Below are positions 3,164 through 59,598 of a DNA stretch of 64,000 nucleotides, one piece after another (within the stretch, counting starts at the first letter, position 1; each line of letters opens with the position of its first letter). The position numbers were made by a program, and so were the translations under genes. The stretch is from Pyrinomonadaceae bacterium (GTDB taxonomy: Bacteria; Acidobacteriota; Blastocatellia; Pyrinomonadales; Pyrinomonadaceae). Below the pieces are notes generated by a model. The model had not been told where the DNA came from and ran no database searches. It saw nothing but the letters and a program-made list of their open reading frames with translations. The DNA lies in assembly GCA_050250045.1 (NCBI GenBank), contig JBFWPK010000014.1, forward strand, positions 20,841 through 84,840, written 5' to 3'.

Positions 3164-3685
3164 CTACGCCGCGGAACCTGTGTTCGTCCCGACCGCCGGA
3201 ACGGTGATCGTCTGCTTTGTCACATTACCGTTGTTCACCGAAGCGGTTGAACCGTATTCGTAATCCAGATCGAGCAATCCCGTCCCGCCCTGAGTTGTGC
3301 CGAGGGCGATCTGCGTCGGCTGGAGCCAGGAATTGAACGCGGTCGATTCCCAAGCCCCGTTGCCCAACTGCATCGAAGTGACCGCACCGGCGGCGTTGTA
3401 CGTGAAGTTGTTCGCGTAGGCCCAGTAGCCACTGTTTGCGTTCTTCCGGCTTTGCACCATCTCCAACGACCCATCGGCATCGAGCGTGTTCTTCACCTTC
3501 CGCCCCGACGGATACTGCTGCTCGATCAACTCCCCCGACAAATTATACGCGTAAGTCATCAAGCTGTCCGTCGCCCCGTTGCCGTAGGTTACTCCGTCGG
3601 TTGTCTGCCTGCTCGCCGTCACACGTCCTAAGATGTCGAATGAAGTGTATTCGGTTGTCGAAACGCTCGATTCCACTTTCGTCAA
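3164..3685 (-). pseudogene. vestigial RHS/YD-repeat fragment (internal piece only)
   Basis: The 173-aa frame aligns with an internal part of the large RHS protein: YAYNLSGELIEQQYPSGRKVKNTLDADG versus YKYNLSGGLIEQTYPSGRLVRNFLDSDG. It lacks the N-terminus, the core domain and a toxin tip. Confidence 0.75.
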
Positions 3686-3722
3686 CGCATCCTCATGAAC
3701 CCACTATCCCCTCTCAATTTAT

Positions 3723-4277
3723 TTAAGTTTCGTAAGCCAAATCATATTCCCGTGGAGAATTAGCAATTTGGACTAGCCGCCATCCTTCCTTTAACTTTTC
3801 TTCCGCTTTAGGACCGACATAAAAGACACCGATTCTTCTAAAGTTTTTCTTTATCTTCGAAGAAAGGGGTTTGTAAATTGCCAGGGAAGACTCAGTGTCA
3901 GAAATAGTTGAAACTCGTCCCGCGACAATTACTTTGTTTTTCTTGGTATATACTCCTTTCGGTGCGAATACTATTGTGTCGGGATTCAACTTTTGATCAA
4001 TGAGAAATACGACACCTCCCTTGCTTAGTTCAAATTCTTCTATATTTAAGGTCGAATCCTTGGGCTTGATCAGGTAGCGATGGTCAGGTCCGGCCCAATC
4101 GCCGTAATCTGTGAATCCAAGTTGAGGGATTCTGGTGAATGAGGCGTACGTTTGCGAAGTCTTGAATTCGAATCTTCCCATCACTACATACTCAATTTCA
4201 CATTCCCGTTCTACCGCGTCGAGAATCGGAAATAAATCATCTTCGATTGCAAAGAAAAGCGTTTCACTTGAACCCAT
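3723..4277 (-). CDS. hypothetical protein, candidate immunity protein for the orphan RHS toxin
   Basis: 184 aa, visibly AT-richer than its surroundings. Lies directly downstream of the orphan toxin cassette on the same strand. Confidence 0.5.
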   Translation of the reverse strand: MGSSETLFFAIEDDLFPILDAVERECEIEYVVMGRFEFKTSQTYASFTRIPQLGFTDYGDWAGPDHRYLIKPKDSTLNIEEFELSKGGVVFLIDQKLNPDTIVFAPKGVYTKKNKVIVAGRVSTISDTESSLAIYKPLSSKIKKNFRRIGVFYVGPKAEEKLKEGWRLVQIANSPREYDLAYET

Positions 4278-4445
4278 ATTTTCTATTTCCTCTTTGAAAT
4301 TAGCAATAGATGTTGTCCCGGCCCAATTTGCTTCCGAATTCGCGCGGCGTTTCGACGTTCTCGTGCCGTTGGCGTTGTGCCGTTCTTCAATGTGTCGACT
4401 GTATTTATTCGTATCGTCCCGTATTTCGGGTGAGTAGCCGTAAGG

Positions 4446-5510
4446 TCAACGTAGGAACCTCCCTTTCGGCCGCCCAGCAGCGGCTTTTAAATATTCCTCC
4501 TTATCGCGCCCTCCGCCCCTTTCGATCGTGTAGCCTTTATCAACTAAAGTGTTCGCGATCTCATCGATCTGCTTCCGCGTTGCGTCGCCACCCAGCCTTC
4601 CCGCCCGCCTCGCGATCTTGGCACCATCGAGATAGTTTCCGGCGATTGGAATTAATCCTCCAAGACCCATTAAGCCGCTTAGGTGATCGCCTCTTCCAAA
4701 ATCGATACCCGCACTTAGAAGTCCCGTCGCCTGCGAAGCGATGGGTATCTCGGTCGCTGCAACGCCGTCAAAGAAAAACTGAGTTGCATCAAGCAGTTCT
4801 TCGGCACTTGCCCCGTGCGTTAGGTCTATTATTATTGGGTCCTTGTTGGGCAGGCATTCCAGGCGGGGGGCGCATAAACTTAGCATTCCGCTTGAGCCAC
4901 CCGTTTCGGAACCTGCCGACGCAGGGGCCGCGTTGGAGGCGGCGGCTTGGGCCGCAGTTTGGCCAGCGGTGTTGCTCGTCGCGTCGGCTACGCTACGTCC
5001 TTGCGCGGTAGCTTGGTTTTGCGGTGAGCTCGGGACGACTGTGCGCCTCCCGTCCGGGTGGAAGTACAAAACGCTTCCAACGCCATATTGATTCCCGTTC
5101 GAATCGAGCCCTCCGGATCCCTCGGTTCGCCGGAGTTTCTGGCCGTCAACATTCTCCCATGTTATTCCGCCTTCATCTTTAGGACATGGTTTTCCTTCTC
5201 CTGTGAATCTTGGTTCTCCTTCGTTACTCAGGCACCAAGACAGTCCGCTCGGGTCGGTGTAATTTATTGGATTGTTTCCCGTATATGTATAGCGATTGAA
5301 AGTCTGAGGATTAGTCGCGCTCGCACTCGCGAGCAGCGGATCCACCGCCGTAAACCTTCCATGCTTATTCTGGTACATCCTCGCCTCGGCGAAGTCGAGG
5401 CCGGTCTCGTCGTCCTTTTCGTAGCCGGTGAAGCGCTTTCGCACACAGTCGGTGCCGCCGGTTCAGGGCTTTGGTGCGGTTGCCCACTCCGGCGCCGATC
5501 TCTTATGACT
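4446..5510 (-). CDS. orphan RHS C-terminal cassette (end of RHS core plus alternative toxin domain), no proper start
   Basis: Frame 4446-5444 begins inside the RHS core: RKRFTGYEKDDETGLDFAEARMYQNKHGRFTAVDPLL...NPINYTDPSGL. A unique 250-aa tail follows. Core homology continues upstream to about 5510 in another frame, so it is frameshifted. No ATG or RBS context. Confidence 0.75.
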
Positions 5511-5527: not shown

Positions 5528-5884
5528 TCATAAAACGTGAATGCCATCCAGTTCAATTTCTAATTCGTCATTTCCATTATCGTAACACGTCATCTCGATA
5601 CTTAAGTCTGATTCACCTTCCTCTAAGGTCCACAATGGGAAATCGACACTCCACCGCGGAGGGTTTGAATCGATGACCGGAGTAATATCTACGCTTTCAG
5701 GGAACGAAGACGGAGGATTAATAAGCGTACGCCCATACTCGGAGATCGCCTCGCTGATCTGGGTTTCGGTCAACCTCTGATTTTTCGTTATCAGCGCAAT
5801 TTCAGAATATTTTTTCTCTACTAGAAGCCGAACTAATCGTTCTGCCGCCGCCATAATAATGTTGTCCATCGGATTGTTTTGCAT
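5528..5884 (-). CDS. hypothetical protein, candidate immunity protein for the main RHS toxin
   Basis: 118 aa, acidic, AT-rich. Starts 4 nt after the RHS stop codon on the same strand. Confidence 0.55.
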   Translation of the reverse strand: MQNNPMDNIIMAAAERLVRLLVEKKYSEIALITKNQRLTETQISEAISEYGRTLINPPSSFPESVDITPVIDSNPPRWSVDFPLWTLEEGESDLSIEMTCYDNGNDELEIELDGIHVL

Positions 5885-5887
5885 GTT

Positions 5888-8800
5888 TCACCTCCGATTT
5901 CCAGGTATGCGTGTAGGAGTTGTCTTATTCACTCCCAGTCCACCAAAATACGCATCGGCTTTATTGATCGCATTACGCGCCTCGGATCGGGATAATCCTG
6001 CCTTTCTCAAAGCCTTATACCCGATTCTTCTCTCTGCTCCATACGTTCCACCTCCTCTTTGTCTTTGGACCGAAGTGGCGATATTGTGTGGCGTACCTGC
6101 CAAATTCGGAGGGCCGGGTAAATGTACGCCTGGAGCCGCGTTTTTTGAATAACCCGGCAGGTTTTTAACAGCGGCATGCTGAATTGTGTGATGAGCGTCC
6201 TTAAACCCAGCATTTTTCAAAGCGCTGATGGAGTCCATCGCTTTATCTGCTTTTCGGAACCATTTGACGCCCGGTATCAGGTTGGGCAGTTCCGATAAAG
6301 CCTCTCCACCGTTGGCCTGACCGCTCGTGACAAGGATGACAACAGCCGTAGCCGCAACGTTCGCGCCCGGGACCAACTGAAGGAGGCGGGCAGCATCCTT
6401 GATGTCCTCGACCGTTTGCAGCCCTGGGGCAGCCGCCGCGGCATCGGCCAATGTGTTGGACCACAACGGACTCCCGCCCCCACAACTTTCGCACGGAAGC
6501 GGGAGTGCCCCGCGAGGAGCTATGTTCGAGCTGATCTCTGCGGCCGGTGCGGAGCTGATCGCCTCCTGCTCCGCCCGCACCTGAACGCCCTTCTCCGGTG
6601 CCAGGTCCGCGCTCCGCGATGCCGGCACCAACGGAGTGAACGACCCATTCCGGTTCAGGGTGCCGTAATCGCCAACCTGCCCGCCCACGTCCGACCAGTC
6701 CCCGCCCGAAAGCGTGACCGCCTCGCCGTCGACGTTCGCCCACTTGTCCTTCTCCGTATCAGTAGGACACGGTTTCCCCACTCCCGTAAACGTGGTAGCC
6801 CCGCTGTTGCTGCGGCACCACGAGAGCCCGCTTGGGTCTGCGTAGTTCACGGGGTCGTTTCCCGTGTAAATATACCGGTTAAAGGTCTGCGGGTTCACGG
6901 CGCTCGCACTCGCCAGCAGCGGGTCGGGCGCGGTGAATCGGCCGTGCCTGTTCTGGTACATTCGCGCCTCGGCGAAGTCGAGGCCGGTCTCGTCGTCTTT
7001 TTCGTAGCCGGTGAAGCGCTTTCTCACACGGTCGGTGCCGGCGACCGAATACTTCAGGCTCTCCGATCTTGCCCCGACACCGACGCCGATTTCTTCGCCG
7101 AACGGCATAAAGTCGCGGCGGGCGATCACCTGGCCTGAGGCGTCCGTTATCACTCTCGGGCTTCCGAGGTGATCTGTTGTCAAATAGCTTGTTTCGGCTT
7201 CCTCAGCCGGTGCAACCACCGTCGAGTACTCCGCCGCGAGTGCACCTCCGGCGTCGTAAACGAAAATGGTCGTCTCGGTCGCGGTTACCTTCTTGACCCG
7301 CGCACCGCTCCCGTCATAGGAGTACCTTCCGATCACGTTCGCATCGGGGTTCTCCGGCGGCGGCTGGACGTTGAGGTCCCTTATCTCGGTCTGCTTGTCG
7401 TCCCCGTTAAAGACGAAACTCCGGTTCTGGGCATCCAGGATCAAATTCCCGTTGAAATCATAAACGTATCCCTGCCCGGTGGTGAAGCGGTTGTTCGTCT
7501 GATCTATCGTCGGGTGCGTTAGGTTGTTAATCGGAAGCTGAGTGCTTCCGACCGTCTGCGAAAACTGCGTCCGGTTCCCGTATCGGTCATAGCCAAAGGT
7601 TTGCACCCAGTTCTGCGTCGTTCCGGTTTTTTCTACGGCTTCCGTCAGTCGGTTGATCGCGTCATACTTGAACGTCTGAACAAAACTGGTCGTCGGAATA
7701 GTCGTGGTCGTCTTCGCGATCATCCCGATGTTCTTCGCCGTATCGACGGTAACACCGTCCGCGTTCAACTCGCCGTACTCGTAATCGATCTTGAACAGGT
7801 CATTGTTCGTCTGCGAGGTTCCCAGTCCGACCTGCTTCAATTGATTAAGCTCGTCGAAAACGGCGGTTTCCCACAATCCGTTCCCCAGCTTCATCTTTCT
7901 GACAGCACCCGTCGCCGAGTAGTCGAAATCCGAAGCAAGCGGATTCATCATCCCGGTCGCGGTCTTAGTTGCCACCGCACTCAATCCGCCGTCGCTGTCC
8001 AGAAAGTTGCGGACAAGCCTCCCGCTCGGATACGTCTGCTCGATCAGCCCGCCCGAAAGATTGTACTTATAAGTGAAACCGTAAGTCTGCCCATCGGTGA
8101 TCTGCTCACTTGCCAGCAATCGTCCGTGGTTATCAAAACTCGTGAACCGGTCCTCGGAAACGGTGCTGGTGACTTTGGTCAATGCACCTCTCGAGAACGC
8201 AGGTGTCGAAGGCAGCCCTTTTCCGTCGTAGAAAAACTCGACCTGCGGCGTCCCGTCGGAGTATGTCCTTTTTACGGGACGACTCGCTTTGTCGTACAAA
8301 TTCGTGATCGTTATGTTCTTCGCGTCGGTAACACTGAGAACATTTCCGAAATCATCATACGTATAGGCGGCCGTCCACTCGTTGTTGTCGGGATTCCCCG
8401 TCGTCGCAAGGTTTGAGTTTGGCGTTTGCTCGGGCTGTCTGACTTTGATCAAGCGGCCGAGCGAATCGTACATAAAGAATCGATTCTGCCCGCCTTGAGC
8501 GATCTTCACCAACTCGCCCTTAACATTGTAACTATAGAAAGTCGGCTGAGTCGGGTTCGCAAGAGTTCCCAGGTCCTGCTCGGCCGAGCCGCCCTTAGCG
8601 GTCGCTTCGTCGACGCGCATCAAGCCATAGATTCCCGATATTGCCCGTGATTTTCTTCCCGAAGCGTCGGTCGCAACGACGTACGTCCCAATCAGGCCCG
8701 TAAGGTCGGAGATGCCGAACTGGACAGTTCCCAGGCTGATCCCAGTTTGCCCCTCAGGCGCCGGGGCGTAGGTCTCGACGACGCGACTTTGGTGGTCGTA

Positions 8801-11491
8801 TCGGAGTTTAGACCAGTAAACGGTCTCCGTCGGTTCGCCCGCCGCGTTTACCCGGTAAGGATTCGAAGTCTTCTCAACCCGGCCGAAGCTGTCATATTTT
8901 ACCTGCGACATAACGTCGCCTTGCAGGTCCTTCGTACGCGTCTTCCGGACCCGGCCGATATTGTCGTAAAACGTCGTTGTTTCCGCCCAGTTGTTTCCGT
9001 CGATCTGCTGCCGTGATTTGACCCAAGTGCTGTCGGGAGCACTCGACGTATTCGGCACGTCGTTGTAGGCAAATTCAGACACACTCCCGCCCGGTGGAGG
9101 TGTGATCTTCTTCACCCGCAAGCGAGCGTCATACTCCGTCGTCGCCGTCTGCCCATTCGCATCGGTCACGGTCAGTAAAAGCCCCGTATTGAAATCGTAA
9201 GTTCTCGAAATCTCCGAACCTTGTGTCGTGCCATAAACCCCGGTCGGGTCCGGCGCCGGTGCCTTTGTTTTGGTGGGATAGGCGTATTTATAGATCGGAT
9301 CATACTCCGTCTCGATAAACCTTGTCGCATCCCCGCTCGTGTCCCAAATCTTCCGAACGTTCCCGAAATTATCAAACATCGAATGCGATTCGATCCACGT
9401 GCCCGTCTCCTGTTTCCAAGTCCGCGTCGTCGTGACATTCCCCCGAAGATTCGAGTTCGGATTTTCCCAGTTCGTGGTCGTGTAACTATTGTCGAAATAC
9501 GCCGCCTCGTCATAGACGAACTGGCTCTTGGCGAGAACTTCTTCCAGGTCGGTCGGGTTTAGGCTGCGCGTTTCAATTGGTCTCCCCAATATACCGCGCG
9601 CCTTGTAACCTGGGTCGTACGAATAGTCAGTCTCGGAAACCGCGGCAAGATCACCGGCCGTAAACAGAGAACCGATCGATTCTACCGTCCCTGATTGGGC
9701 GGCAGACAAAGTAAGAGTTTTGTAATGGTAAGCCTTAGAGCTTTTCTTGTTAAGGTGTGAAAAATACTCGAAGTCCCCAATGCCGTTCCCGTTATACTCG
9801 ACCTCTGTGAGACTAGCCAGCGCGTTTCCACTTTCAAGAATGACAGCAACCTGCTTCGAAAGCCGCACGTCAGACGGAAGTCCAACCAACGAAACAGATG
9901 TCCATCCCTTAAGCTCACGGGCCAGCAGCGTAGAATCGTCGCTGCCGAAATAGTTCGCTTCGTATTCCCTGCCCTCTAAAACCCCAAGGGCCGTCGTGCT
10001 AAAAATACTGCTACCCGCCGAACTGCCGTAGAAATGATGTGTTTGCCGGGCCAACAGATTATTTCCGTTGTTGAGGGTTTTGATCGTTCTTGTAGAGACC
10101 GGATCTATTGAAGTTGGCGCAATGGATTTGCTAATCGTCGTTCTGATCTCATACGAACTGCCGTTTCCGCCGCTCGGGTATACTCGCTTCTCCAGAACCT
10201 GTCTCGAGATCTCCGGGTAGGCACCAAAATACCCGAATGATTGCAATACACCAGTGTCTGGGCCACCCTCCAAAGAGCCGCCCCAGTCATACTCAAACGC
10301 CGAGCCAGTTGGCGTTTCGACCCTCGCCAACTCTCCGTAACTGTTGTACTTGTAACGAAACTGCCGGTCACCCGGAAACCAAACCGAGGCAACGACCTGA
10401 GGGTTGATCGGCGCAGGATCGGGACAATTTTGAACGCCGGTAGGGCAACCCAGATCGCCGAACAGCTGAACGGAACTTTTCAATGTTTCGCCTGCGCGCA
10501 AAGCACTAGCTAGGGGCGCGTACGATATTCGAATTGCCTGGCTTTGTTGGTCGAACCCCGTATAGCGGACGCGATCATGCAGGCCGTATATGCTGTCCTG
10601 GTTGTTGTAGGAAATGTCGACGACCCGACCGTTCGAATCCGTAACCTCAATTAACTTTGAATCATAGTTTGTCCCATCATAAGTGAACGTCATCCGATTT
10701 CCGTTTCGGTCCTTCATCCAGGAAACTCTTCCAATGTCGATCCGATATTGGGTACCGTTGCTCAAATACAGATATCCCGATGTCAAAAAGTACCCACCCG
10801 AGAACTGCCCGTCAGTGACGATCTGGTCGGAATTGAACCTCACCGCCGACCCGTCGTTACTGACGAACTCGGTACCCCGCGACGATGGGTAGATCGCCGT
10901 AGGATCACCCGACTGACTGCATTGAACAGTAACCGGTAGCGAAGAGGCACCGTGAATTCGGGAAACCAGATTTATTTCCGACCCATCTGCGGTAACGAAG
11001 GAAAGTTGTGTCGTTGCATATAACGTATTCTGAGATTGAGAGGGTGGGCAAAGCGGATCATCAAAATTCCCTTCTAGGGACGAGCGCCCGATCAGTTTAC
11101 CAGGCATATAACGCAACTCCTCCGGCGACCACCATGGATCACGGCTTGCGACGTTATGATCGTTGTATATACCATGCCCGTTCTCATCGATAAATTCGTC
11201 GTGACGATGTTCAAGGATCCATTGCTGGTTTACGCTGAGTGAAATTGTGTACCCGACCTCACCTCGCCCTCCAATACCGAGCAGCGGGATTGTATAGTTC
11301 ATTCGACCGTTGTAGAGGCCGATCGAACCAAAATCGCTAGCGGCGGGGTTGCCCGACGCTGGACTTAGGGCAATTGAGGCTGGCGTCGAACGGTCCGTCA
11401 TCCGAAACTGGCTATAGCTATTTTCCCAAGCAGTCAGGAAAATGAGTGTTCCTATCAGGCTATGGCAAAGGATTTGTGTTCTGCTCAACAT
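5888..11491 (-). CDS. RHS repeat protein with signal peptide and C-terminal polymorphic toxin (AHH-like nuclease candidate)
   Basis: 1867 aa. N-terminal signal-like segment (LIGTLIFLTAWENSYSQ). Dozens of YD/RHS repeats. RHS-associated core ending in NPVNYADPSGL (codons at 6824-6838). The 315-aa tip contains KDAHHTIQ...GVHLP...PHN. Confidence 0.95.
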   Translation of the reverse strand: MLSRTQILCHSLIGTLIFLTAWENSYSQFRMTDRSTPASIALSPASGNPAASDFGSIGLYNGRMNYTIPLLGIGGRGEVGYTISLSVNQQWILEHRHDEFIDENGHGIYNDHNVASRDPWWSPEELRYMPGKLIGRSSLEGNFDDPLCPPSQSQNTLYATTQLSFVTADGSEINLVSRIHGASSLPVTVQCSQSGDPTAIYPSSRGTEFVSNDGSAVRFNSDQIVTDGQFSGGYFLTSGYLYLSNGTQYRIDIGRVSWMKDRNGNRMTFTYDGTNYDSKLIEVTDSNGRVVDISYNNQDSIYGLHDRVRYTGFDQQSQAIRISYAPLASALRAGETLKSSVQLFGDLGCPTGVQNCPDPAPINPQVVASVWFPGDRQFRYKYNSYGELARVETPTGSAFEYDWGGSLEGGPDTGVLQSFGYFGAYPEISRQVLEKRVYPSGGNGSSYEIRTTISKSIAPTSIDPVSTRTIKTLNNGNNLLARQTHHFYGSSAGSSIFSTTALGVLEGREYEANYFGSDDSTLLARELKGWTSVSLVGLPSDVRLSKQVAVILESGNALASLTEVEYNGNGIGDFEYFSHLNKKSSKAYHYKTLTLSAAQSGTVESIGSLFTAGDLAAVSETDYSYDPGYKARGILGRPIETRSLNPTDLEEVLAKSQFVYDEAAYFDNSYTTTNWENPNSNLRGNVTTTRTWKQETGTWIESHSMFDNFGNVRKIWDTSGDATRFIETEYDPIYKYAYPTKTKAPAPDPTGVYGTTQGSEISRTYDFNTGLLLTVTDANGQTATTEYDARLRVKKITPPPGGSVSEFAYNDVPNTSSAPDSTWVKSRQQIDGNNWAETTTFYDNIGRVRKTRTKDLQGDVMSQVKYDSFGRVEKTSNPYRVNAAGEPTETVYWSKLRYDHQSRVVETYAPAPEGQTGISLGTVQFGISDLTGLIGTYVVATDASGRKSRAISGIYGLMRVDEATAKGGSAEQDLGTLANPTQPTFYSYNVKGELVKIAQGGQNRFFMYDSLGRLIKVRQPEQTPNSNLATTGNPDNNEWTAAYTYDDFGNVLSVTDAKNITITNLYDKASRPVKRTYSDGTPQVEFFYDGKGLPSTPAFSRGALTKVTSTVSEDRFTSFDNHGRLLASEQITDGQTYGFTYKYNLSGGLIEQTYPSGRLVRNFLDSDGGLSAVATKTATGMMNPLASDFDYSATGAVRKMKLGNGLWETAVFDELNQLKQVGLGTSQTNNDLFKIDYEYGELNADGVTVDTAKNIGMIAKTTTTIPTTSFVQTFKYDAINRLTEAVEKTGTTQNWVQTFGYDRYGNRTQFSQTVGSTQLPINNLTHPTIDQTNNRFTTGQGYVYDFNGNLILDAQNRSFVFNGDDKQTEIRDLNVQPPPENPDANVIGRYSYDGSGARVKKVTATETTIFVYDAGGALAAEYSTVVAPAEEAETSYLTTDHLGSPRVITDASGQVIARRDFMPFGEEIGVGVGARSESLKYSVAGTDRVRKRFTGYEKDDETGLDFAEARMYQNRHGRFTAPDPLLASASAVNPQTFNRYIYTGNDPVNYADPSGLSWCRSNSGATTFTGVGKPCPTDTEKDKWANVDGEAVTLSGGDWSDVGGQVGDYGTLNRNGSFTPLVPASRSADLAPEKGVQVRAEQEAISSAPAAEISSNIAPRGALPLPCESCGGGSPLWSNTLADAAAAAPGLQTVEDIKDAARLLQLVPGANVAATAVVILVTSGQANGGEALSELPNLIPGVKWFRKADKAMDSISALKNAGFKDAHHTIQHAAVKNLPGYSKNAAPGVHLPGPPNLAGTPHNIATSVQRQRGGGTYGAERRIGYKALRKAGLSRSEARNAINKADAYFGGLGVNKTTPTRIPGNRR

Positions 11492-11569: not shown

Positions 11570-12703
11570 CTATCTCCTAAAAAACGCTGGCACCGGGATA
11601 TCTCCTGATTGGCCCCAGGTTACGGTGCGTTGGGAGTAGTTGCTGGCGGACTGGACGATGTACCAGGTGCCGGTTGAGGGGCGCCAGATGGAGTAGTCGC
11701 AGCGGGCGTCGCCGTCGTAGTCGTTGGGGACGGGGATATCGCCGGACTGGCCCCAGGAGATGGGCGTGGCCGGGTAGGTGCCGCTTATGCTTGAGCGGAT
11801 GTACCATTTGCCGTGGGCGGAGTCATAGACGGCGTGGTCGGCGCGGCCGTCGCCGTCGTAGTCGGAGCTGACGGTTGCCCACGTCGCTCCCGATGGGTTG
11901 AAGTTCGGCTGGATGGTGGCCGTAGAACCGTCGGCGCTGTGCTTTACGCGAAAGGTTCGGTCCGACGGGCGAAAGACGCCGAGGTCGGCGCGGCCGTCGC
12001 CGTCGTAATCGGCGGGGGCCGGGATGTCGCCTGCCGTGCTTTGAGAGTTATCGGTGTAGTAACCGGCGGTGCTTGCGTGGATATACCATGTGCCGTTCGT
12101 CGGCCGGAACACGGCCTCGTCGGTCTTGCCGTCGCCGTCATAGTCGGCCGCGGCCATCAGGTCGCCCGATCCGCCGAATTGGTATGTGTAGAACAGGCCC
12201 GTGCTGCTGTGGATCACGTACCAGGTAAAGTTCGACGGCCGCCAGACGGAATAATCGGTTGTGCCGTCGCCGTCGTAATCGCCGGGCACCGGAACGTCGC
12301 CGGGCTCGCCCCACGCCTGGGTTGCCCAGGACGAACCGGTCGCGGGATTGTACACGTACCAGATGCCTGACGAAGGACGCCAGATCGCAAGGTCGGCCGG
12401 CGGTGCGGCCGTCGCGTTCTTGTCTTCCACCGCCAATAGCCGCGACCCGGCGTAGACGTACTCTTTCGAAAGCTGCGGTGTGGACGAAGGCGGCGGCACC
12501 GCCATCGGGTTCCACGAACTCGGAGCGTTCTTTGCAATTTCCTGTCCAAACCAGCCGTACCGCTTCCCGCTGAACGGATCAGTTCGTGGAAACCAGCCGT
12601 TTGAGGCAAATACGCCCAGAGTGATCAATATCACAACGGCGGATGCGGCAATTCCGTAGAGAAGCCTGCGGCGGCTTTCGGGGTTAGACGGGTGCAAGGG
12701 CAT
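11570..12703 (-). CDS. FG-GAP/VCBS-repeat protein with N-terminal transmembrane anchor
   Basis: 377 aa. TM helix (LLYGIAASAVVILITLGVFA). Five or six repeats of GDxPVPxDYDGDGxxDxxVWRPSxGxWY. Confidence 0.85.
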   Translation of the reverse strand: MPLHPSNPESRRRLLYGIAASAVVILITLGVFASNGWFPRTDPFSGKRYGWFGQEIAKNAPSSWNPMAVPPPSSTPQLSKEYVYAGSRLLAVEDKNATAAPPADLAIWRPSSGIWYVYNPATGSSWATQAWGEPGDVPVPGDYDGDGTTDYSVWRPSNFTWYVIHSSTGLFYTYQFGGSGDLMAAADYDGDGKTDEAVFRPTNGTWYIHASTAGYYTDNSQSTAGDIPAPADYDGDGRADLGVFRPSDRTFRVKHSADGSTATIQPNFNPSGATWATVSSDYDGDGRADHAVYDSAHGKWYIRSSISGTYPATPISWGQSGDIPVPNDYDGDARCDYSIWRPSTGTWYIVQSASNYSQRTVTWGQSGDIPVPAFFRR

Positions 12704-12905
12704 GGGATACTCCTTAAGCTAAGTTGTTAGAACTTGTCGGGAAATTTGATGGGGCGAGAGTAGCATCGTCGGATACGTCCCGGCAAGCCCGGTATGGACA
12801 TAAGCCGGGTGGTCGGGCGATAAGACGCTCGGATCGAGGCAAATGCTGGGATCTGTTGGACCTAAGCTGGCCACTGTGCGGCGCTGCCTTGAGAAAGTAC
12901 GGCTA

Positions 12906-13136
12906 AGAGTGGTCACCTTCAGGCGCAGAGTGACGACTTTCAGGCCCAGAGTGACGACTCTCAGGCCCAGAGTGACGACTCTCAGGCTCAGAGCGACGAC
13001 TCTCAGGCTCAGAGTGACGACTCTCAGGCTCAGAGTGGTCAGTCTCACGCTCAGAGTGACAACTCTCACGCTCAGAGTGGTCAGTCTCGGGCCCAGAGTG
13101 ACGACTCTCAGGCCCAGAGTGACTGTTCTACCAGGC
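12906..13136. repeat. tandem array, 11 units of exactly 21 bp (consensus AGAGTGACGACTCTCAGGCCC)
   Basis: Counted directly. Most units contain the palindrome AGAGT-GACG-ACTCT plus a 7-bp linker. Both strands read as open heptad-repeat ORFs, which is an artefact. Confidence 0.9.
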
Positions 13137-13562
13137 GCGGGACGCATTGGCGGTGGGCCGTGTTCTGTGTCTCTGTAAAAAGTTGTTGCGCAAGACCGTC
13201 AAACTATGCGAAATTAGACATGGCTCAAGAGCGGGCCGCGGACATGTTGGATATATCCGCCTCCTGTCTGCCGGCGGGCGGCTTCAAAATTGCCGCCTGG
13301 TCGAGATTCCTTCCTTAATAACCGCGCATTTTCGGTTAGACACCGAACTCAATCTCAGATCTAACGGGCTTGATCGGCTTCAGACCCTCCGTTATCGCGC
13401 ACTGCGCTCAAACGAGGTCTGTCGATCGACCGCACTTCGAGGGCCGATTGGCGAACTGGCGTTCCGAGCTTCACAGGCTTCTGGTTCTTTGTCGCTTAAG
13501 CTTCTGTGACCGGGCACGCCTGTTCATTACAAGCTTTAAGAAAGCTAAGGAAAAGAAAACTT

Positions 13563-14270
13563 ATGCAGCCATCTAATAAATGGTTTCCTGTGCCGCTCCA
13601 AGAGCGGGCGGCGTGGTTTCAGAATTTTGCGGCGCAGTTCAATCAGATCGGGACCGGGCTTGGGTTTCTGCCGTCCGTATTGACGCAGGTGCAGAACGAC
13701 AACACGGACTTTCAGTTCTGCGCGGACCAGACGGTCGAGGTCGAGGCGTTCGCCAAGGCGTTTCGGCTGTATCGGCAGACGGTGACCGAGGGCCACGTCG
13801 GCGACCCGGCCCCGCAGTACCCGACAAATCCTTCGGCGGCGCCGCCGAGCCAGGTGCCGACCGGCATCTTTGAGCGGCTGGACGATCTCGTCAAACAGAT
13901 CCGAGTCGCCAACACGTACACGCCCGAGATCGGAGCCCTTCTCGGGATAATCCCGGCACCGCCAGGCAACCTTATCCCGCCCGACGAACTCCAGCCGACG
14001 CTCAAGGCGACGACTCTGCCGGGTTCGGTGGTGCAGGTCAAGTTTGTCCGCGGCAGCACCAACGGCGTGATGATCGAAATGAAGCTCGACAACGCGGTTT
14101 CGTGGTCGGATGCGGGCAAGTTCTACTCGTCGCCCGCCCAACTGACAGTCCCTGAAAACGCCGAGAATCTCCCGCGCTCGGTCCAACTCCGCGCCAGATA
14201 TGTCGAAGGCAACGGCCCCGTCGGCCTTTACTCCGATATAGTCGCCACGGTGACGCTCCCGCAAGCCTAG
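13563..14270 (+). CDS. hypothetical protein
   Basis: ATG at 13563 (MQPSNKWFPVPLQERAAWFQNF...) preceded by AGGAAAAGAAAA. 235 aa, no recognised family. The C-terminal half looks like a beta-sandwich. Confidence 0.6.
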   Translation: MQPSNKWFPVPLQERAAWFQNFAAQFNQIGTGLGFLPSVLTQVQNDNTDFQFCADQTVEVEAFAKAFRLYRQTVTEGHVGDPAPQYPTNPSAAPPSQVPTGIFERLDDLVKQIRVANTYTPEIGALLGIIPAPPGNLIPPDELQPTLKATTLPGSVVQVKFVRGSTNGVMIEMKLDNAVSWSDAGKFYSSPAQLTVPENAENLPRSVQLRARYVEGNGPVGLYSDIVATVTLPQA

Positions 14271-14295: not shown

Positions 14296-14336
14296 AAACA
14301 GCCGCCCGGCCGTGTTGGCCTTGCGGCTGTTTTGTT
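14296..14336. terminator. bidirectional stem-loop between convergent genes
   Basis: ACAGCCGC (14298-14305) pairs with GCGGCTGT (14323-14330). A-run upstream and TTTGTT downstream. Confidence 0.5.
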
Positions 14337-14349
14337 CGCTGGGCGAAGC

Positions 14350-14764: not shown

Positions 14765-14947
14765 GTCAGTACCGTCGGCGGTAGCCGATGGTTGAAAGTG
14801 CCGCCAGTATAAGTTTGCGAATCGTCAGGGGGCGGCGTTAAACCAGCGGCTACTGCCGCCGATACTGACAAGCGTAAAACCAGCGGCTACCGCCGCCGGT
14901 ACTGACAAGCGTTAAACCAGCGGCTACCGCCGCCGGTACTGACAAGT
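14765..14947. repeat. repeat family A-prime: one inverted copy (14765-14793) plus 3 tandem 37-bp copies (14837-14873, 14874-14910, 14911-14947)
   Basis: Unit is GTTAAACCAGCGGCTACCGCCGCCGGTACTGACAAGC. The inverted copy is GTCAGTACCGTCGGCGGTAGCCGATGGTT. Related to family A through the CTACCGC core and CTGAC end. Confidence 0.85.
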
Positions 14948-26755: not shown

Positions 26756-27088
26756 CTAAGACTTCAACATCTTCCAGATTTCGGCATCGACTTTTTCCAT
26801 ATCATCATTGGATAGCCTGCCGAGTGTTTTCAGAATTCGTTTCTTGTCAATGGAGCTCATCTGAAAGATCATAACAACGGATGTCAAATCCAAGCCGTTT
26901 TCTGCTGACGGCTCGATCTGAACAGTGAAATTGAAGCGGATCGCGTTTCGGTTTGACGTAATCGGTGCAATCATTAACATCGGTTCGCCTGCGATGTCCG
27001 TCTGAACGGCGACGGCCGGCCGGCGACCGCTTTGTTCGCGCTTGTCACTCGGCGGCAATCCAACGAGTAACACGTCGCCGCGCGCCAT
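26756..27088 (-). CDS. MazF/PemK-family type II toxin
   Basis: MARGDVLLVGLPPSDKREQSGRRPAVAVQTD...MIAPITSN. About 110 aa from the ATG at 27088. Confidence 0.8.
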   Translation of the reverse strand: MARGDVLLVGLPPSDKREQSGRRPAVAVQTDIAGEPMLMIAPITSNRNAIRFNFTVQIEPSAENGLDLTSVVMIFQMSSIDKKRILKTLGRLSNDDMEKVDAEIWKMLKS

Positions 27089-27309
27089 TAATTGTCCTCC
27101 TCCAGAGTTGCTTCGAAGCGGGTATAATCTTGTTCGCTCGCAGCTTCCCATTGGGCGAACTCAGCAAGCATATCTTCGTCCGCGTCAGTCTCTATCGTAA
27201 TGCGGACTCGTTCATGCTCTTTCAGTTCTCGCGGCACGGTGGAAAGCGGTTTGAAAATGCCGTTTTCGTAAATTGCCTCTACCGTAGTCATATTTCCAGA
27301 TTTTATCAT
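27088..27309 (-). CDS. DUF104-type antitoxin
   Basis: MTTVEAIYENGIFKPLSTVPRELKEHERVRITIE. Its stop overlaps the toxin start. The true start may be 27291. Confidence 0.65.
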   Translation of the reverse strand: MIKSGNMTTVEAIYENGIFKPLSTVPRELKEHERVRITIETDADEDMLAEFAQWEAASEQDYTRFEATLEEDN

Positions 27310-33796: not shown

Positions 33797-33957
33797 TCGC
33801 TGACTTTTAAATGGTCTTGCGCTCGGTTATTCGACGAGATCATTCTATTGTCGGATTCGATTTTTGCTTTCCTCAAAGCAAGACACAGATCGCGCAGGTC
33901 GCTTGAACGTCGCAATCGTCGGGTAACCGCCTCAGATGACATATCAACGTTTTTCAT
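33775..33957 (-). CDS. small hypothetical protein, possible partner of the nucleotidyltransferase
   Basis: 60 aa. Overlaps the upstream gene by 14 nt. Its 3-prime end runs into the family C element. Confidence 0.35.
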   Translation of the reverse strand: MKNVDMSSEAVTRRLRRSSDLRDLCLALRKAKIESDNRMISSNNRAQDHLKVSDAEARTK

Positions 33958-34399
33958 TTTCCAACCTGTCGATGTCTGCCAGATCCTGCGGACGCGCGGA
34001 TTGTTTTTTCATCTTTATCAACCCTTCTCGTGAAACAACATAGAGCGAAAGTCCCATAAAGTCTATATGTTCGCGAGTGCTCCACACATCTTCGACGTGG
34101 GGCGTGACGAGAAGAAGGTCAAGCGAGATCACTTCACCGCCAACTACGGCAGAAACACGGCGAATCTCGACGGTCCGCTCCTTAAATGATATATCAAGAC
34201 CACGAATGTCGTAACCCACTTCCGCAGCAGCCGCGTAAGCCTGCTCGAGAGTTTCTTCGCGGATCAGAAAGTCGATGTCTTCGGTCGCCCTAATGAGGCC
34301 ATGAGCGGAAACCGCCAGGCCTCCGCAAAGCGCGAATTCGATCTCGTTCCTGTTAAACGATTCCACGATCAGCTGAAGTTGTTCGAAAATTACGGACAT
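33944..34399 (-). CDS. nucleotidyltransferase-fold protein (TA/Abi-like)
   Basis: 151 aa. FALCGGLAVSAHGLIRATEDIDFLI (G[GS]-x-DxD NTase signature). Confidence 0.6.
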   Translation of the reverse strand: MSVIFEQLQLIVESFNRNEIEFALCGGLAVSAHGLIRATEDIDFLIREETLEQAYAAAAEVGYDIRGLDISFKERTVEIRRVSAVVGGEVISLDLLLVTPHVEDVWSTREHIDFMGLSLYVVSREGLIKMKKQSARPQDLADIDRLENEKR

Positions 34400-34496
34400 C
34401 CCTGATCAGCTTATAACCGGTGCCGGCCCCATCACTGAACCGCATCGTTTCGAGTGCGAAGATGATCGGTGCCGTAGAATTGCGCATTCAAGCGAC

Positions 34497-34823
34497 TTAG
34501 ACCCCTTTCAGACTCTGCTTCAGTCGGCGAAGGATCTTTTTGTCCTTTAGCAGTTTTTCAATAGGATCATCCATGGGCATTGGGGTATCGATCTTTTCGC
34601 GTAGCGCCTGATTGATAAGTGTTTGATATCCTACCGAACCATTCTTTGTCTGCTTTTTGAAGTGGTCAACGATGTCCGCATCCAGGTAGATGGTGATGCG
34701 GTTCTTGCTTTTCCTGACGACTTTATCTACGAAAGCCGGCCGCGTGATCCGCCTTAGGCCTCGATCAGCAGCCTCCTTTGAAGTTTCGAGATATTTGTAG
34801 TCCCTACTTTTTGTATCGCTCAT
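34497..34823 (-). CDS. BrnA-type antitoxin (CopG/RHH C-terminus)
   Basis: 108 aa. Overlaps the brnT-like gene by 20 nt. RITIYLDADIVDHFK...GYQTLINQALRE. Confidence 0.75.
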   Translation of the reverse strand: MSDTKSRDYKYLETSKEAADRGLRRITRPAFVDKVVRKSKNRITIYLDADIVDHFKKQTKNGSVGYQTLINQALREKIDTPMPMDDPIEKLLKDKKILRRLKQSLKGV

Positions 34824-36258: not shown

Positions 36259-36621
36259 TTAAACAAGACCAACACTGATCTTCAGTGCTATATCACACCG
36301 CTTCAGGGTAAATGCATTCACGCGTCCGAGTTTCTTCACAAGACGGCCTTTATCAATGGTTCTAATTTGGTCAAATACAACAACCGAATCCTGTTTAAGC
36401 CCGGCTTCTCCTTGTTCGATCAACACTTCAGTCGGGTATAGTTTGTCATCGAATTTCGAAGTGACGGCGGCAACGATCGTTACCGGGCTAAAACGATTCG
36501 CAGTATCATTTTGAATAATGACGGCCGGGCGCGTTTTCTTTATCTCAGATCCGACGGCCGGGTCAAACTCGACCAGATAGATCTCGCCACGCAAGACAAT
36601 TTTTACAGGTACTTTTGCCAC
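36259..36621 (-). CDS. MazF/PemK-family toxin endoribonuclease
   Basis: 120 aa. GEIYLVEFDPAVGSEIKKTRPAVIIQND...VTIVAAVTS. Confidence 0.85.
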   Translation of the reverse strand: MAKVPVKIVLRGEIYLVEFDPAVGSEIKKTRPAVIIQNDTANRFSPVTIVAAVTSKFDDKLYPTEVLIEQGEAGLKQDSVVVFDQIRTIDKGRLVKKLGRVNAFTLKRCDIALKISVGLV

Positions 36622-36939: not shown

Positions 36940-37278
36940 CTATACGTCGAGGAGTATTCTGAGAATGTCTTCAATATGACCCATTGTAACTGACTCAATA
37001 TACCCCAAGGGTTTTGTGAGACGCTCCTTGCTTATCGACCGCATCGCCTCGCACATTGCGTAACTTGGCAGTGTTAAACCGCCTTCTGGAGGCAATATCT
37101 CGACGTGCGAGCGAATATTCTTTTTCTTCGAGGTGATCGGAATAGCGAAGATCAGTTGCGCCGCGCTTTGATTGAATAGGTCACTCGAAACAATAAGGAT
37201 CGGCCGCGTTCCGGCTTGTTCGCGGCCAACCGTCGGACTCAAGTTGGCCAACCAAACCTCACCGCGCCTGATTTTCAT
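36940..37278 (-). CDS. MazF/PemK-family toxin endoribonuclease
   Basis: 112 aa. RGEVWLANLSPTVGREQAGTRPILIVSSD...AIPITS. Confidence 0.85.
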   Translation of the reverse strand: MKIRRGEVWLANLSPTVGREQAGTRPILIVSSDLFNQSAAQLIFAIPITSKKKNIRSHVEILPPEGGLTLPSYAMCEAMRSISKERLTKPLGYIESVTMGHIEDILRILLDV

Positions 37279-59008: not shown

Positions 59009-59249
59009 TGCAAAAGCCCGCTTAAGGTGCAAAAGCCCGCTTAAGGTGCAAAAGCCCGCACGAAGTAAGGGCGAAACATTCAACGCCATGCAGAAGCCCG
59101 CACAAGTAAGGGCGAAACATTCAACGCCACGCAGCGGCCCCGCACGAAGTAGGGCGAAACATTCAACGCCATGCAGAAGCCGCGCACGAAGTAAGCGGCG
59201 AAATATTCAACGTTTCGATCAAGACCTTACTACGTGCGGGCCTGAGCAT
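59009..59249. repeat. tandem array of family C half-elements closed by one inverted arm
   Basis: Two truncated units and four full units of TGCA(A/G)AAGCCCGCACGAAGTAAGGGCGAAACATTCAACGCCA (about 43-bp period), then ..CCTTACTACGTGCGGGCCTGAGCA. Confidence 0.85.
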
Positions 59250-59324
59250 CCCGTCTTCACGGGCCTCCGCAAGTCCCGCGCCCGCGACTCCCGAAGCTCA
59301 AAATCCCACCCCAAGCCTTCCCAG

Positions 59325-59555
59325 AACCATTCTCAGTTAACTAAAACTCATTCCCACAATTGTGAAACTCTTCTGAGAACTCAAAAAGTCACCCTCACAA
59401 CTCCAAAACCCGCTCTCACAATTGTGAAAGCCATTCTCAGTCAACCAAAAGTCGTTCTCAGTTAACCAAAAGCCATTCTCACAATTGTCAGAATCATTTT
59501 CAGTTAACCAAGAGTCATTCCTAGAACTTCAAAAGTCCTTCTCACAGGTCAAAAC
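59325..59555. repeat. tandem array, 11 units of exactly 21 bp (AT-rich; TTCTCA core)
   Basis: Example units are GCCATTCTCAGTCAACCAAAA and CCCGCTCTCACAATTGTGAAA. Units alternate between palindromes TCACAATTGTGA and AGTTAACT. Confidence 0.88.
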
Positions 59556-59598
59556 TCGGCACTTTTGTCCAAACACCCCGCTTCTTGCCGTTCGCCAC

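What the first reader, a model, noticed from the sequence alone, without database searches (positions are those of the whole stretch)
12906..13136. Eleven exactly 21-bp-phased tandem repeats, each a 14-bp palindrome, upstream of the RHS operon
The unit is AGAGTGACGACTCTCAGGCCC. In at least 7 of 11 units AGAGT-N4-ACTCT forms a 5+4+5 palindrome followed by a 7-bp linker. A 21-bp period equals two helical turns, so all palindromes lie on one DNA face. This is the geometry of operator or iteron arrays and of plasmid centromere-like (parC-type) sites bound cooperatively by dimeric proteins. The array starts about 200 bp upstream of the FG-GAP/rhs operon start and about 430 bp upstream of the divergent hypothetical gene at 13563. 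Both strands are open across the array, but this is a heptad-translation artefact. The array could be a regulatory platform or a slippage-prone contingency locus controlling toxin expression.
Basis: partly seen in the sequence, partly recalled or inferred. Interest (0 to 1): 0.7.

Follow-up and report, generated by a model that had tools for sequence, protein, structure and literature searches.

The report
Phased 21-bp array upstream of promoter
The eleven 21-bp repeats are real, but they belong to the promoter of the neighbouring unknown gene rather than to the RHS toxin operon: relatives keep a strictly 21-bp-spaced array at the same place with quite different repeat sequences, which suggests a docking platform for an unidentified regulator.

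Summary
The array is real. It spans window 12906-13136 as 11 units on an exact 21-bp lattice with no indels; 9 units are good and the 2 edge units are degenerate.

The source is a Pyrinomonadaceae MAG (Acidobacteriota). The array is not coding. It is not tied specifically to the RHS operon. About 20 of roughly 28 loci encoding homologues of the divergent 235-aa gene (13563-14270) carry a 21-bp-lattice array upstream of that gene. In most of these loci a conserved sigma70-type promoter follows. In the window this is -35 TTGCGC at 13186, TG plus -10 GAAATT at 13207-13215. A leader, the gene and a terminator come next.

Unit sequences differ between lineages, but the lattice is kept even in degenerate arrays, with zero indels. 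In the most distant relative the lattice carries invariant palindromic arms (ATGTATC-N8-GATACAT) around variable centres and spacers, and the last site overlaps the -35.

Best reading (confidence about 0.5): a helically phased binding platform (UAS or operator) for an unidentified oligomerising regulator. Curvature, coding, iteron and centromere readings found no support. I class it as a new variant of a known kind, of moderate interest.

The parts
12906..13136 (.). Array of 11 units on an exact 21-bp lattice. Consensus AGAGTGACGACTCTCAGGC[C/T]C. Units at 12906 and 13116 are degenerate.
   Evidence: No indels. Motif found only here in the window.
12927..13115 (.). The nine well-conserved units. 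Positions 1-6 (AGAGTG), 14 and 21 are invariant or nearly so. Positions 7-9, 11, 17 and 20 are variable.
   Evidence: per-position conservation string ****9*7759798*987994*.
13177..13181 (+). A-tract (GTAAAAAG) just upstream of the -35. It aligns with the conserved A-rich, UP-like block (GGAAAAAA) of related loci.
13186..13191 (+). -35 element TTGCGC. The TTG is invariant in 11 aligned loci.
   Evidence: alignment A6, invariant T22 T23 G24.
13207..13215 (+). Extended -10: TG (13207-13208) plus hexamer GAAATT (13210-13215). The G, the A at hexamer position 2 and the T at position 6 are invariant across loci.
   Evidence: invariant G44, A47, T51. By E. coli consensus this promoter is weak; one search found none at its threshold.
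13221..13562 (+). Predicted transcribed leader (inferred TSS about 13221). Its first ~20 nt (TGGCTC...) are conserved in long-leader relatives. It has no Rfam match.
   Evidence: (fold z -2.6). The TSS is inferred, not measured.
13563..14270 (+). Gene for a 235-aa protein of unknown function: N-terminal helical hairpin, Pro-rich linker, C-terminal FnIII-like beta-sandwich. It is the only gene that co-occurs with the arrays across loci.
14307..14339 (+). Intrinsic-terminator-like hairpin and T-run after the gene, making the unit monocistronic.
11570..12703 (-). Divergent neighbour: the FG-GAP repeat protein gene, first gene of the FG-GAP/RHS operon (RHS ORF 5888-11491). This is context, not part of the conserved module.
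   Evidence: RHS or FG-GAP is the divergent neighbour in 6 of about 28 loci.

Best explanation
The array is the upstream control region of a sigma70-type promoter. That promoter transcribes a leader and a monocistronic gene for a 235-aa FnIII-domain protein.

The array works as a helically phased lattice of binding sites, one per two turns of the helix and so all on one DNA face. An oligomerising or cooperatively binding DNA-binding protein, not identified here, occupies the lattice and from there activates or represses the adjacent promoter.

Shown:
- the array and its lattice;
- its conserved position next to a conserved promoter in relatives;
- selection on the 21-bp phase;
- clustering of the conserved positions within units;
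- an operator-like pattern in the most distant relative.

Inferred: that a protein binds, the sign of regulation, and the transcription start.

Any effect on the divergent FG-GAP/RHS operon would be secondary.
For: 1. Association with the gene. Period-21 arrays of at least 3 copies give 19 TRF rows in 22.4 kb of 1.1-kb zones upstream of homologues of the 235-aa gene. Elsewhere there are 3 rows in 190 kb, one of which is the L008 upstream array displaced by inserted repeats. This is about 80-fold enrichment. Phased printouts show 4-15 units per locus. L031 and L028 add two more loci.

2. The 235-aa gene is the only gene shared by the loci. There is no recurrent neighbour family.

3. A conserved promoter follows most arrays: an A-rich block, TTGCAT, a 17-18 nt spacer, then TG-n-TAAATT. 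The TTG, the extended -10 G, and the -10 A2 and T6 are invariant. In 11 of the 19 loci scored the -35 lies from -7 to +90 bp from the array end. A terminator follows the gene.

4. The phase is under constraint. Degenerate arrays differ from their consensus at 115/315 (L017), 57/231 (L018), 53/168 (L021) and 64/189 (L011) positions, yet contain no indel. Blocks of different unit variants stay on one lattice with conserved anchor columns.

5. Conserved positions within units are clustered. Circular autocorrelation is z +4.9 and +2.8 at lags 1-2, z -3.0 and -2.6 at lags 5-6, and back to about 0 at lags 9-10. This fits patches about one helical turn apart.

6. L028 (34% protein identity) has 8 sites ATGTATC-N8-GATACAT on the 21-bp lattice. 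The arms are invariant in 6 of 6 full units, while the centres and 20-bp spacers vary. The last site overlaps the -35.

7. Precedents:
- LytTR regulators bind direct or inverse repeats of 9-11 nt separated by 11-13 nt, without a common consensus (PMC4847170).
- RemA binds poorly conserved periodic repeats upstream of promoters and is proposed to wrap the DNA (PMC8481266).
- BldC multimerises head-to-tail on direct repeats (PMC5859096).
Against: - No binder was found. The 235-aa protein has more acidic than basic residues by my count from its sequence, and has no DNA-binding domain by Pfam, NCBIfam, PDB sequence search or fold search. No transcription factor recurs near the loci.
- Unit sequences differ even between close relatives. 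L004 and L005 share 84% identity in promoter plus leader, but their units match at 10 of 21 positions, about chance level. Paralogous loci in one genome also differ (L009 vs L015, L019 vs L023). This would require several fast co-evolving regulators or a shape reader.
- No shared motif is significant (z 1.3-2.5).
- Arrays are absent upstream of the gene in L010, L013, L016 and L029/L030.
- L024 is partly period 41.
- No further copies of the window's unit occur in the 64-kb window or in the JGI metagenomes.
- A second 21-bp array in the window (59318-59560) lies between convergent genes with no promoter nearby.
Confidence: 0.5

Rival explanations
1. Sequence-independent structural element. Any unit repeated every two helical turns adds up its small intrinsic bends, or can form slipped structures under supercoiling. 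On this view the array acts as curved or supercoil-responsive DNA upstream of the promoter, or as a phase-neutral spacer, without a sequence-specific binder.
For: - The period is conserved while the sequence is not.
- The array sits directly upstream of an A-rich, UP-like block and the promoter.
- Model bends of about 2-36 degrees per unit accumulate to about 8-174 degrees over an array.
Against: - Units are not more bent than shuffled units. The mean percentile is 0.47-0.50 in two wedge models whose parameters I recalled from memory. The window unit bends 12.8 degrees with a twist sum 22 degrees off 720.
- Only period 21 and its multiples occur, never 10, 11, 31 or 32, which curvature would allow equally.
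- Conserved positions cluster in patches.
- The invariant palindrome arms in L028 point to base-specific reading.
- The hairpin or cruciform potential of the window array is ordinary.
Confidence: 0.15
2. A functionless minisatellite. An ancestral 21-bp array next to this gene has been kept by chance. Its period is inherited through unequal exchange, and its sequence drifts by concerted evolution.
For: - Unit turnover is faster than in the flanking non-coding DNA.
- Higher-order periods of 42 and 63 are typical of unequal exchange.
- The arrays are dispensable in some loci.
- These genomes carry many other tandem repeats, including another 21-bp array.
Against: - The arrays persist at the same place down to 34% protein identity of the neighbouring gene.
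- There are zero indels in strongly diverged arrays.
- Conservation within units is non-random.
- The L028 pattern is operator-like.
- Enrichment is about 80-fold over the rest of the sequence held.
Confidence: 0.15
3. The array is an operator or contingency locus that controls the divergent FG-GAP/RHS toxin operon, for example through copy-number slippage.
For: - The array lies 203 bp upstream of the FG-GAP start.
- An RHS or FG-GAP gene is the divergent neighbour of the 235-aa gene in the window, L008, L009, L016, L029 and L031.
- A bidirectional control region is possible in these loci.
Against: - Most loci with arrays have no RHS or FG-GAP neighbour.
- L029 and L016 have RHS but no array.
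- No promoter-like site lies between the array and the FG-GAP start.
- The conserved promoter next to the array points the other way.
- There are no copy-number data.
Confidence: 0.1
4. Plasmid-type iterons or a parC-like centromere: an origin or partition site bound by a Rep or ParR-type protein.
For: Direct repeats at about two helical turns upstream of a gene resemble iteron and centromere arrays (established knowledge). The unit sequence differs between systems, as it does for iterons.
Against: - No Rep, ParA, ParM or RHH gene is nearby. The adjacent protein is an FnIII-domain protein without a DNA-binding domain.
- The context is chromosomal housekeeping genes (aroA, aroK).
- The gene has no homologue on known plasmids or phages.
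Confidence: 0.03
5. Coding heptad repeat. The array is part of a small protein, for example in the SDDSQAQ frame, where the most variable unit position (20) is a wobble position.
For: Four of six frames are open. In the +2 frame the C/T/G changes at position 20 and the T-to-C change at position 5 are synonymous (my reading).
Against: - The SDDSQAQ frame has a TGA at 12890 and no start codon before 13160.
- No gene is called here in the deposited annotation.
- The translations have no credible Pfam match; the best is a sub-threshold DEFB136 hit, E 0.0043.
- The related arrays of L017 and L021 have stops in all six frames, and the units share no peptide.
Confidence: 0.02

Closest known systems
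LytTR-type response-regulator operators (AgrA, ComE, YpdB, BtsR)
   Same: - Repeats of 9-11 nt separated by 11-13 nt give a period of about 21 bp.
- The repeats can be direct or inverse.
- There is no common consensus between systems.
- The sites lie just upstream of the -35 (PMC4847170).
- The L009 unit contains CGCATTTCAT, a 9 of 10 match to the YpdB motif GGCATTTCAT (PMC4847170).
   Different: - Known LytTR sites have two repeats (PMC4847170), not 5-15.
- No LytTR gene was found in the window's transcription-factor-sized ORFs or next to the loci.
- The motif similarity is post hoc.
RemA and BldC-type multimeric binding to periodic, poorly conserved repeats upstream of promoters
   Same: Several phased sites upstream of a promoter, modest sequence conservation, cooperative or oligomeric occupancy, and possible DNA wrapping (PMC8481266, PMC5859096).
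   Different: Those sites repeat every helical turn (about 10 bp), with 4-6 sites. Here the period is two turns, with up to 15 units that are near-identical within one array.
Plasmid iterons (about 22-bp period) and parC-type centromeres
   Same: Tandem direct repeats at about two helical turns next to the regulated gene, with unit sequence specific to each system.
   Different: There is no initiator or partition gene, the context is chromosomal, and the adjacent gene encodes an FnIII-domain protein.
Tandem palindromic operators at 21-bp spacing (ARG boxes: 18 bp plus 3 bp; my own knowledge)
   Same: In the window each unit holds a short palindrome, and centres are 21 bp apart on one face. L028 and L024 have 6-8-6 palindromes on the lattice.
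   Different: ARG boxes come in pairs and share an AT-rich consensus. Here only about half of the arrays are palindromic, and the sequences differ.
Promoter-proximal simple-sequence contingency loci (for example the 7-bp repeats in Haemophilus hmw promoters; my own knowledge)
   Same: A tandem repeat in a promoter region that could change copy number.
   Different: The unit is 21 bp and imperfect. It lies upstream of the -35, so copy changes keep spacing and helical phase. No polymorphism data exist.

Membership tests
Phased operator/UAS array (generic) | Repeated sites at an integral number of helical turns, adjacent to or overlapping a promoter | tested here: met
   Exact 21-bp lattice. Conserved promoter within -7 to +90 bp of the array end in 11 of 19 loci scored, 49 bp in the window.
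Phased operator/UAS array (generic) | Base-specific conservation of contact positions, with free spacer positions | tested here: inconclusive
   Conserved positions cluster. The pattern is clear in L028. In the window array variation is limited and partly in blocks.
Phased operator/UAS array (generic) | An identified cognate DNA-binding protein | not testable with these tools
   No candidate was found nearby. The neighbouring protein lacks a DNA-binding domain.
LytTR operator | 9-11-nt repeats separated by 11-13 nt (PMC4847170) | tested here: met
   The period is 21 in all arrays.
LytTR operator | A LytTR-domain regulator in the genome that binds the site | not tested
   Only 20 transcription-factor-sized ORFs of the window were scanned, and none is LytTR. 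The whole genome was not available.
Plasmid iterons | Adjacent rep gene encoding a winged-helix initiator | tested here: not met
   The adjacent protein has no Pfam, NCBIfam or PHROG hit, and its fold is a helical hairpin plus FnIII.
Plasmid iterons | Located on a plasmid or other replicon origin | tested here: not met
   The 122-kb contig carries aroA, aroK and other housekeeping genes. The gene has no homologue in PLSDB or in phage records.
parC-type centromere | Array upstream of a parMR or parFG-type operon with an RHH adaptor | tested here: not met
   No such genes occur in 94 neighbouring ORFs of 21 loci or in the window flank.
Contingency locus (phase variation by repeat slippage) | Copy-number polymorphism within a species that changes expression | not testable with these tools
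   The only second sample of this sequence is a unitig that ends in the array. The metagenome scan gave one unrelated singleton.
Contingency locus (phase variation by repeat slippage) | Repeat lies within an ORF or between promoter elements, so that unit changes alter frame or spacing | tested here: not met
   The array ends 49 bp upstream of the -35 and is not in a called gene.
Protein-coding heptad repeat | A conserved open frame with a start codon, and a homologous peptide in relatives | tested here: not met
   Stops occur in all six frames in L017 and L021.
CRISPR array | Repeats separated by unique spacers | tested here: not met
   Units are head-to-tail without spacers.
Known RNA family | Match to an Rfam covariance model | tested here: not met
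   Nothing below E = 6.8 in 12400-13900. Nothing on the arrays or leaders in 18 loci.

The most novel reading that the evidence does not exclude
Pyrinomonadaceae may have a class of promoter-upstream elements in which the conserved, selected property is a strict 21-bp lattice rather than any sequence. Two mechanisms could read such a lattice. One is a periodicity- or shape-sensing oligomer that wraps or coats any homogeneous two-turn repeat. The other is a set of operator-regulator pairs that co-evolve unusually fast, so that even paralogous loci in one genome have private arrays. The second 21-bp array in the window (59318-59560) would be another member outside a promoter context.
Probability: 0.2. 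Interest if true: 0.8.

Novelty: new variant of a known kind. Interest (0 to 1): 0.6.

Why it matters
If a protein does read these arrays, two questions follow.

- How can an operator array be replaced wholesale between close relatives while its geometry stays fixed?
- What does a regulator need from its site: sequence or lattice?

The finding also gives a handle on an uncharacterised gene module (promoter, leader, FnIII-domain protein) in Pyrinomonadaceae and related Blastocatellia.

For annotation, it shows that intergenic tandem repeats in these MAGs are not all assembly noise. It also shows that short-read contigs break systematically at a functional promoter region.

Tried and rejected
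1. Coding. Frames were translated, and Pfam was run on three ORFs across the array. There is no start codon in the best frame, and there are stops in all six frames in L017 and L021.

2. Palindrome as the defining feature. Dyad tests on 19 units gave a mean equal to shuffles. Ten units have arms of at least 5 nt and nine have arms of at most 3 nt (Fisher P 0.065). The window unit gives P 0.12-0.13.

3. Hidden common motif. Best-rotation comparison and an EM-like search at widths 6, 8 and 10 gave z 1.3-2.5. Only L007 and L009 are clearly related (18/21), and L019 and L024 match in inverted orientation (17/21).

4. Intrinsic curvature. Two wedge models were used, with parameters recalled from memory. 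Units are no more bent than shuffles.

5. Cruciform or hairpin potential. The fold z-score is -1.4.

6. RNA family. Rfam gave nothing on the array or on the leaders. RNAalifold on eight leader 5' regions gave no consensus pairs because the alignment is too divergent.

7. The neighbouring protein as binder. It has no DNA-binding domain. An RHH-like N-terminus was considered but found no support from Pfam at E up to 10, a PDB profile search or a fold search.

8. Complementarity between the array unit and its own leader or gene. The self-locus score equals the cross-locus score.

9. A regulator encoded nearby. Ninety-four neighbouring ORFs and 20 window ORFs were scanned. No recurrent transcription factor and no LytTR protein was found.

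10. Copy-number variation and further genomic sites. The window search and the metagenome scan found nothing usable.

11. Sigma-54 promoter near the gene. I considered GGCACG-N4-TTCA at about 13512 from reading the sequence. I dropped it because the motif is not conserved in L004 and L005.

12. Plasmid or phage origin. There is no homologue.

13. Literature. No paper describing such arrays was found.

Full report
**Observation**

The window holds a head-to-tail array at 12906-13136. Tandem Repeats Finder gives 12919-13123, period 21, 9.8 copies, 85% matches and no indels. Printed in phase, there are 11 units. Nine are good copies of AGAGTGACGACTCTCAGGC[C/T]C. The first and last units are degenerate.

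The 14-mer AGAGTGACGACTCT with up to 2 mismatches occurs nine times, all in the array. Shuffles give 0.25.

Four more have one mismatched pair. Such a 5-nt inverted repeat is not unusual for a 21-mer (P about 0.13). The array as a single strand folds no better than shuffles (z -1.4).

The stated distances are right: 203 bp to the FG-GAP start at 12703, and 427 bp to the ATG at 13563.

**Source and context**

The FG-GAP protein and the 235-aa protein are found with exactly these sequences on a 122-kb contig of a Pyrinomonadaceae MAG, GCA_050185915.1 (Acidobacteriota). No gene is called over the array.

- On one side lies FG-GAP, then an RHS toxin with a Tox-SHH end, then a DUF7668 gene.
- On the other side lies the 235-aa gene, followed by STAS and anti-sigma-kinase genes, aroA and aroK.

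A short-read unitig of the same sequence ends inside the array. The copy number therefore rests on the MAG assembly.

**Not coding**

Four of six frames are open. In the SDDSQAQ frame the most variable unit position is a wobble position. That frame, however, has a stop at 12890 and no start codon until 13160. The translations have no credible Pfam match; the best is a sub-threshold DEFB136 hit (E 0.0043, below the curated cut-off). The corresponding arrays of two relatives have stops in all six frames.

**The comparative result**

Homologues of the 235-aa protein (83 in the protein collection; the four that carry a source name are Pyrinomonadaceae MAGs) were traced to their DNA. About 20 of roughly 28 loci carry a tandem array of period exactly 21 upstream of the gene, usually 60-600 bp away. 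Arrays have 4-15 units, never an indel, and a different unit sequence in nearly every lineage.

In all the sequence held, period-21 arrays of at least 3 copies give 19 TRF rows in 22.4 kb of upstream zones. Elsewhere there are 3 rows in 190 kb, and one of those is an upstream array displaced by inserted repeats.

The 235-aa gene is the only gene shared by the loci. Ninety-four neighbouring ORFs show no recurrent family. An RHS or FG-GAP gene is the divergent neighbour in six loci: the window, L008, L009, L016, L029 and L031. Of these, L016 and L029 have no array. The array therefore goes with the 235-aa gene, not with the RHS operon.

**What lies next to the array**

In most loci a conserved promoter follows the array. 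It consists of an A-rich block, TTGCAT, a 17-18 nt spacer and TG-n-TAAATT. The TTG, the G of the extended -10, and the -10 A2 and T6 are invariant in 11 aligned loci.

In the window the elements are:

- -35 TTGCGC at 13186-13191;
- TG at 13207-13208;
- -10 GAAATT at 13210-13215.

By E. coli standards this is weak (one search found none), but it is positionally homologous to the conserved promoter. The inferred start is near 13221.

Long-leader loci share the first nucleotides of the transcript (TGGCTC...). The window leader folds somewhat better than shuffles (z -2.6). No Rfam family matches, and I could not establish a consensus structure. The gene ends at a terminator. In short-leader loci (L014, L015, L017, L020, L022) the array abuts the gene's own promoter.

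**What is conserved in the arrays**

Not the sequence. The best-rotation similarity of units is barely above shuffles (9.45 vs 9.21). Only L007/L009 (18 of 21) and L019/L024 (17 of 21, inverted) are clearly related. A motif search gives z 1.3-2.5. L004 and L005 are 84% identical in promoter and leader, but their units match at 10 of 21 positions.

Not dyad symmetry. About half the units have arms of at least 5 nt and half have none.

Not curvature magnitude. In two wedge models, with parameters taken from memory, units are no more bent than their shuffles.

What is conserved is the lattice:

- Arrays whose units differ from their consensus at a quarter to a third or more of positions still have no indel.
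- Blocks of different unit variants stay in one phase with conserved anchor columns.
- Within units, conserved positions cluster: positive autocorrelation at lags 1-2, negative at lags 5-6, and back to zero at lags 9-10.
- In the most distant relative, L028 (34% protein identity), eight sites ATGTATC-N8-GATACAT sit on the 21-bp lattice, mostly 42 bp apart. The arms are invariant and the centres and spacers are variable. The last site overlaps the -35. This is the pattern of a protein-binding operator.

**Mechanism**

I conclude that the array is most likely a helically phased binding platform for an oligomerising regulator that acts on the adjacent promoter. This step is an inference.

The binder is unknown. 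The 235-aa protein has more acidic than basic residues by my count from its sequence. It consists of a helical hairpin and an FnIII-like domain, and has no hit to DNA-binding families or folds. No regulator gene recurs nearby.

The weakest point of this reading is the fast turnover of unit sequence, even between paralogous loci of one genome (L009/L015, L019/L023). It would require either several co-evolving regulators or a reader of shape and periodicity.

The geometry has published precedents:

- LytTR regulators bind repeats of 9-11 nt separated by 11-13 nt, direct or inverse, without a common consensus (PMC4847170).
- RemA binds periodic, poorly conserved repeats upstream of promoters and is proposed to wrap DNA (PMC8481266).
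- BldC binds direct repeats as head-to-tail multimers (PMC5859096).

None of these has 5-15 near-identical units at two-turn spacing.

**Rivals**

- A purely structural element or a neutral minisatellite cannot be excluded. Each explains the phase constraint, the clustered conservation and the L028 pattern less well.
- Control of the RHS operon may occur in the six loci with that neighbour, but it is not the conserved relationship.
- The iteron, centromere, CRISPR and coding readings fail their defining features.

**Verdict**

The feature is real. The palindrome and the RHS link are not the essence.

This is a new variant of a known kind: a phased operator or UAS array. It has an unusual evolutionary signature, namely a conserved lattice with replaceable sequence. 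Interest is moderate to fairly high because the binder and the logic of the turnover are open and testable.

Noticed in passing
window 59318-59560: A second strictly 21-bp-phased array of about 12 units, with core CAAAAG.C.TTCTCA and alternating variable parts. It lies between convergent genes: a 482-aa ORF ending at 59004 and a 906-aa ORF ending at 59599. There is no homologue of the 235-aa gene and no obvious promoter nearby. It shares the hexamer TCTCAG with the first array.
   Followed up: partly
window 13165-13562; L004-L009, L011, L024, L025, L031: A conserved promoter (A-rich block, TTGCAT, TG-n-TAAATT) is followed by a 250-420-nt leader whose first ~20 nt (TGGCTCRRAG...) are conserved. 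The leader has no Rfam match. Changes in a short ATG-initiated frame between L004 and L005 look non-coding. It is either an uncharacterised cis-regulatory leader or a small RNA.
   Followed up: partly
window 13563-14270: A 235-aa protein family of Pyrinomonadaceae and related Blastocatellia MAGs, with one or two copies per genome. The N-terminal helical hairpin has no structural match. The C-terminal domain is FnIII-like. There is no Pfam, NCBIfam, PHROG or PADLOC hit. The family is repeatedly found divergent from RHS or FG-GAP genes (6 loci).
   Followed up: partly
L028 2629-2923: Eight palindromic sites ATGTATC-N8-GATACAT on a 21-bp lattice upstream of the most distant homologue. The arms are invariant, and the last site overlaps the -35 (TTGTAT-N18-TAAAAT). 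This is a ready-made operator for finding the binder.
   Followed up: yes
L009 3264-3521 and L007 1-147: The unit GTTGGGCTTCACGCATTTCAT contains CGCATTTCAT at 21-bp spacing. This is a 9 of 10 match to the E. coli YpdB (LytTR) motif GGCATTTCAT, which is itself repeated with an 11-bp spacer. It may be coincidence (roughly P 0.03 over all units, post hoc).
   Followed up: no
window 59009-59212; L008 3088-3480 and 4891-5305; L019 about 4250-4300; L023 4800-5081; L025 1315-1502: A REP-like hairpin element, AAGCCCGCACG(A/T)AGTAAGGGC, in tandem or inverted copies (periods 19, 42, 39, 62, 98, 174). It is spread through Pyrinomonadaceae intergenic regions. In L008 it has been inserted between the 21-bp array and the promoter.
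   Followed up: no
window 14835-14946; L008 3769-3848; L006 about 410-450: Three 37-bp repeats (GCGTTAAACCAGCGGCTACCGCCGCCGGTACTGACAA) lie between the anti-sigma-kinase-like and STAS genes. A related element, CCGGTCGCTA..GCTC.CGGTTCTGACAG, occurs in the leaders of L006 and L008.
   Followed up: no
L004 1225-1249, L010 4704-4747, L018 1797-1829, L021 4709-4744, L022 4708-4787, L026 349-591, L007 498-532, L009 3860-3951, L028 5115-5441: Heptanucleotide (or 8-nt) tandem repeats are common. They often form the two arms of long hairpins just after the stop codon of the 235-aa gene or in its leader. They recall the cyanobacterial STRR heptamer repeats (my own knowledge).
   Followed up: no
window 62901-63125: Two copies of a 116-bp repeat containing GTCCCTGAAGGGGAC-type hairpins.
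   Followed up: no
window 5528-11491 (minus strand): An RHS protein with a C-terminal Tox-SHH domain, followed by a DUF7668 gene, presumably the immunity gene. Two or three unannotated small ORFs (3164-5441) lie downstream and could be orphan toxin or immunity cassettes.
   Followed up: no
L029 2403-2960 and L030 90-650: Upstream of one homologue the array and promoter are missing. A degraded FG-GAP coding remnant runs up to about 60 bp from the start codon, next to an RHS gene. This is a natural 'array-less' variant.
   Followed up: partly
window 26756-27148, 36259-36618, 36940-37275, 33944-34820: Three MazF/PemK-like toxin genes, an AbiEii-like nucleotidyltransferase and a BrnA-like antitoxin lie within 11 kb, forming a toxin-antitoxin-rich stretch.
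   Followed up: no
L015 8001-8129; L019 1558-1602: A c-di-AMP riboswitch (60.6 bits) and an Acido-Lenti-1 RNA (39.7 bits) in related loci. Neither is related to the arrays.
   Followed up: no
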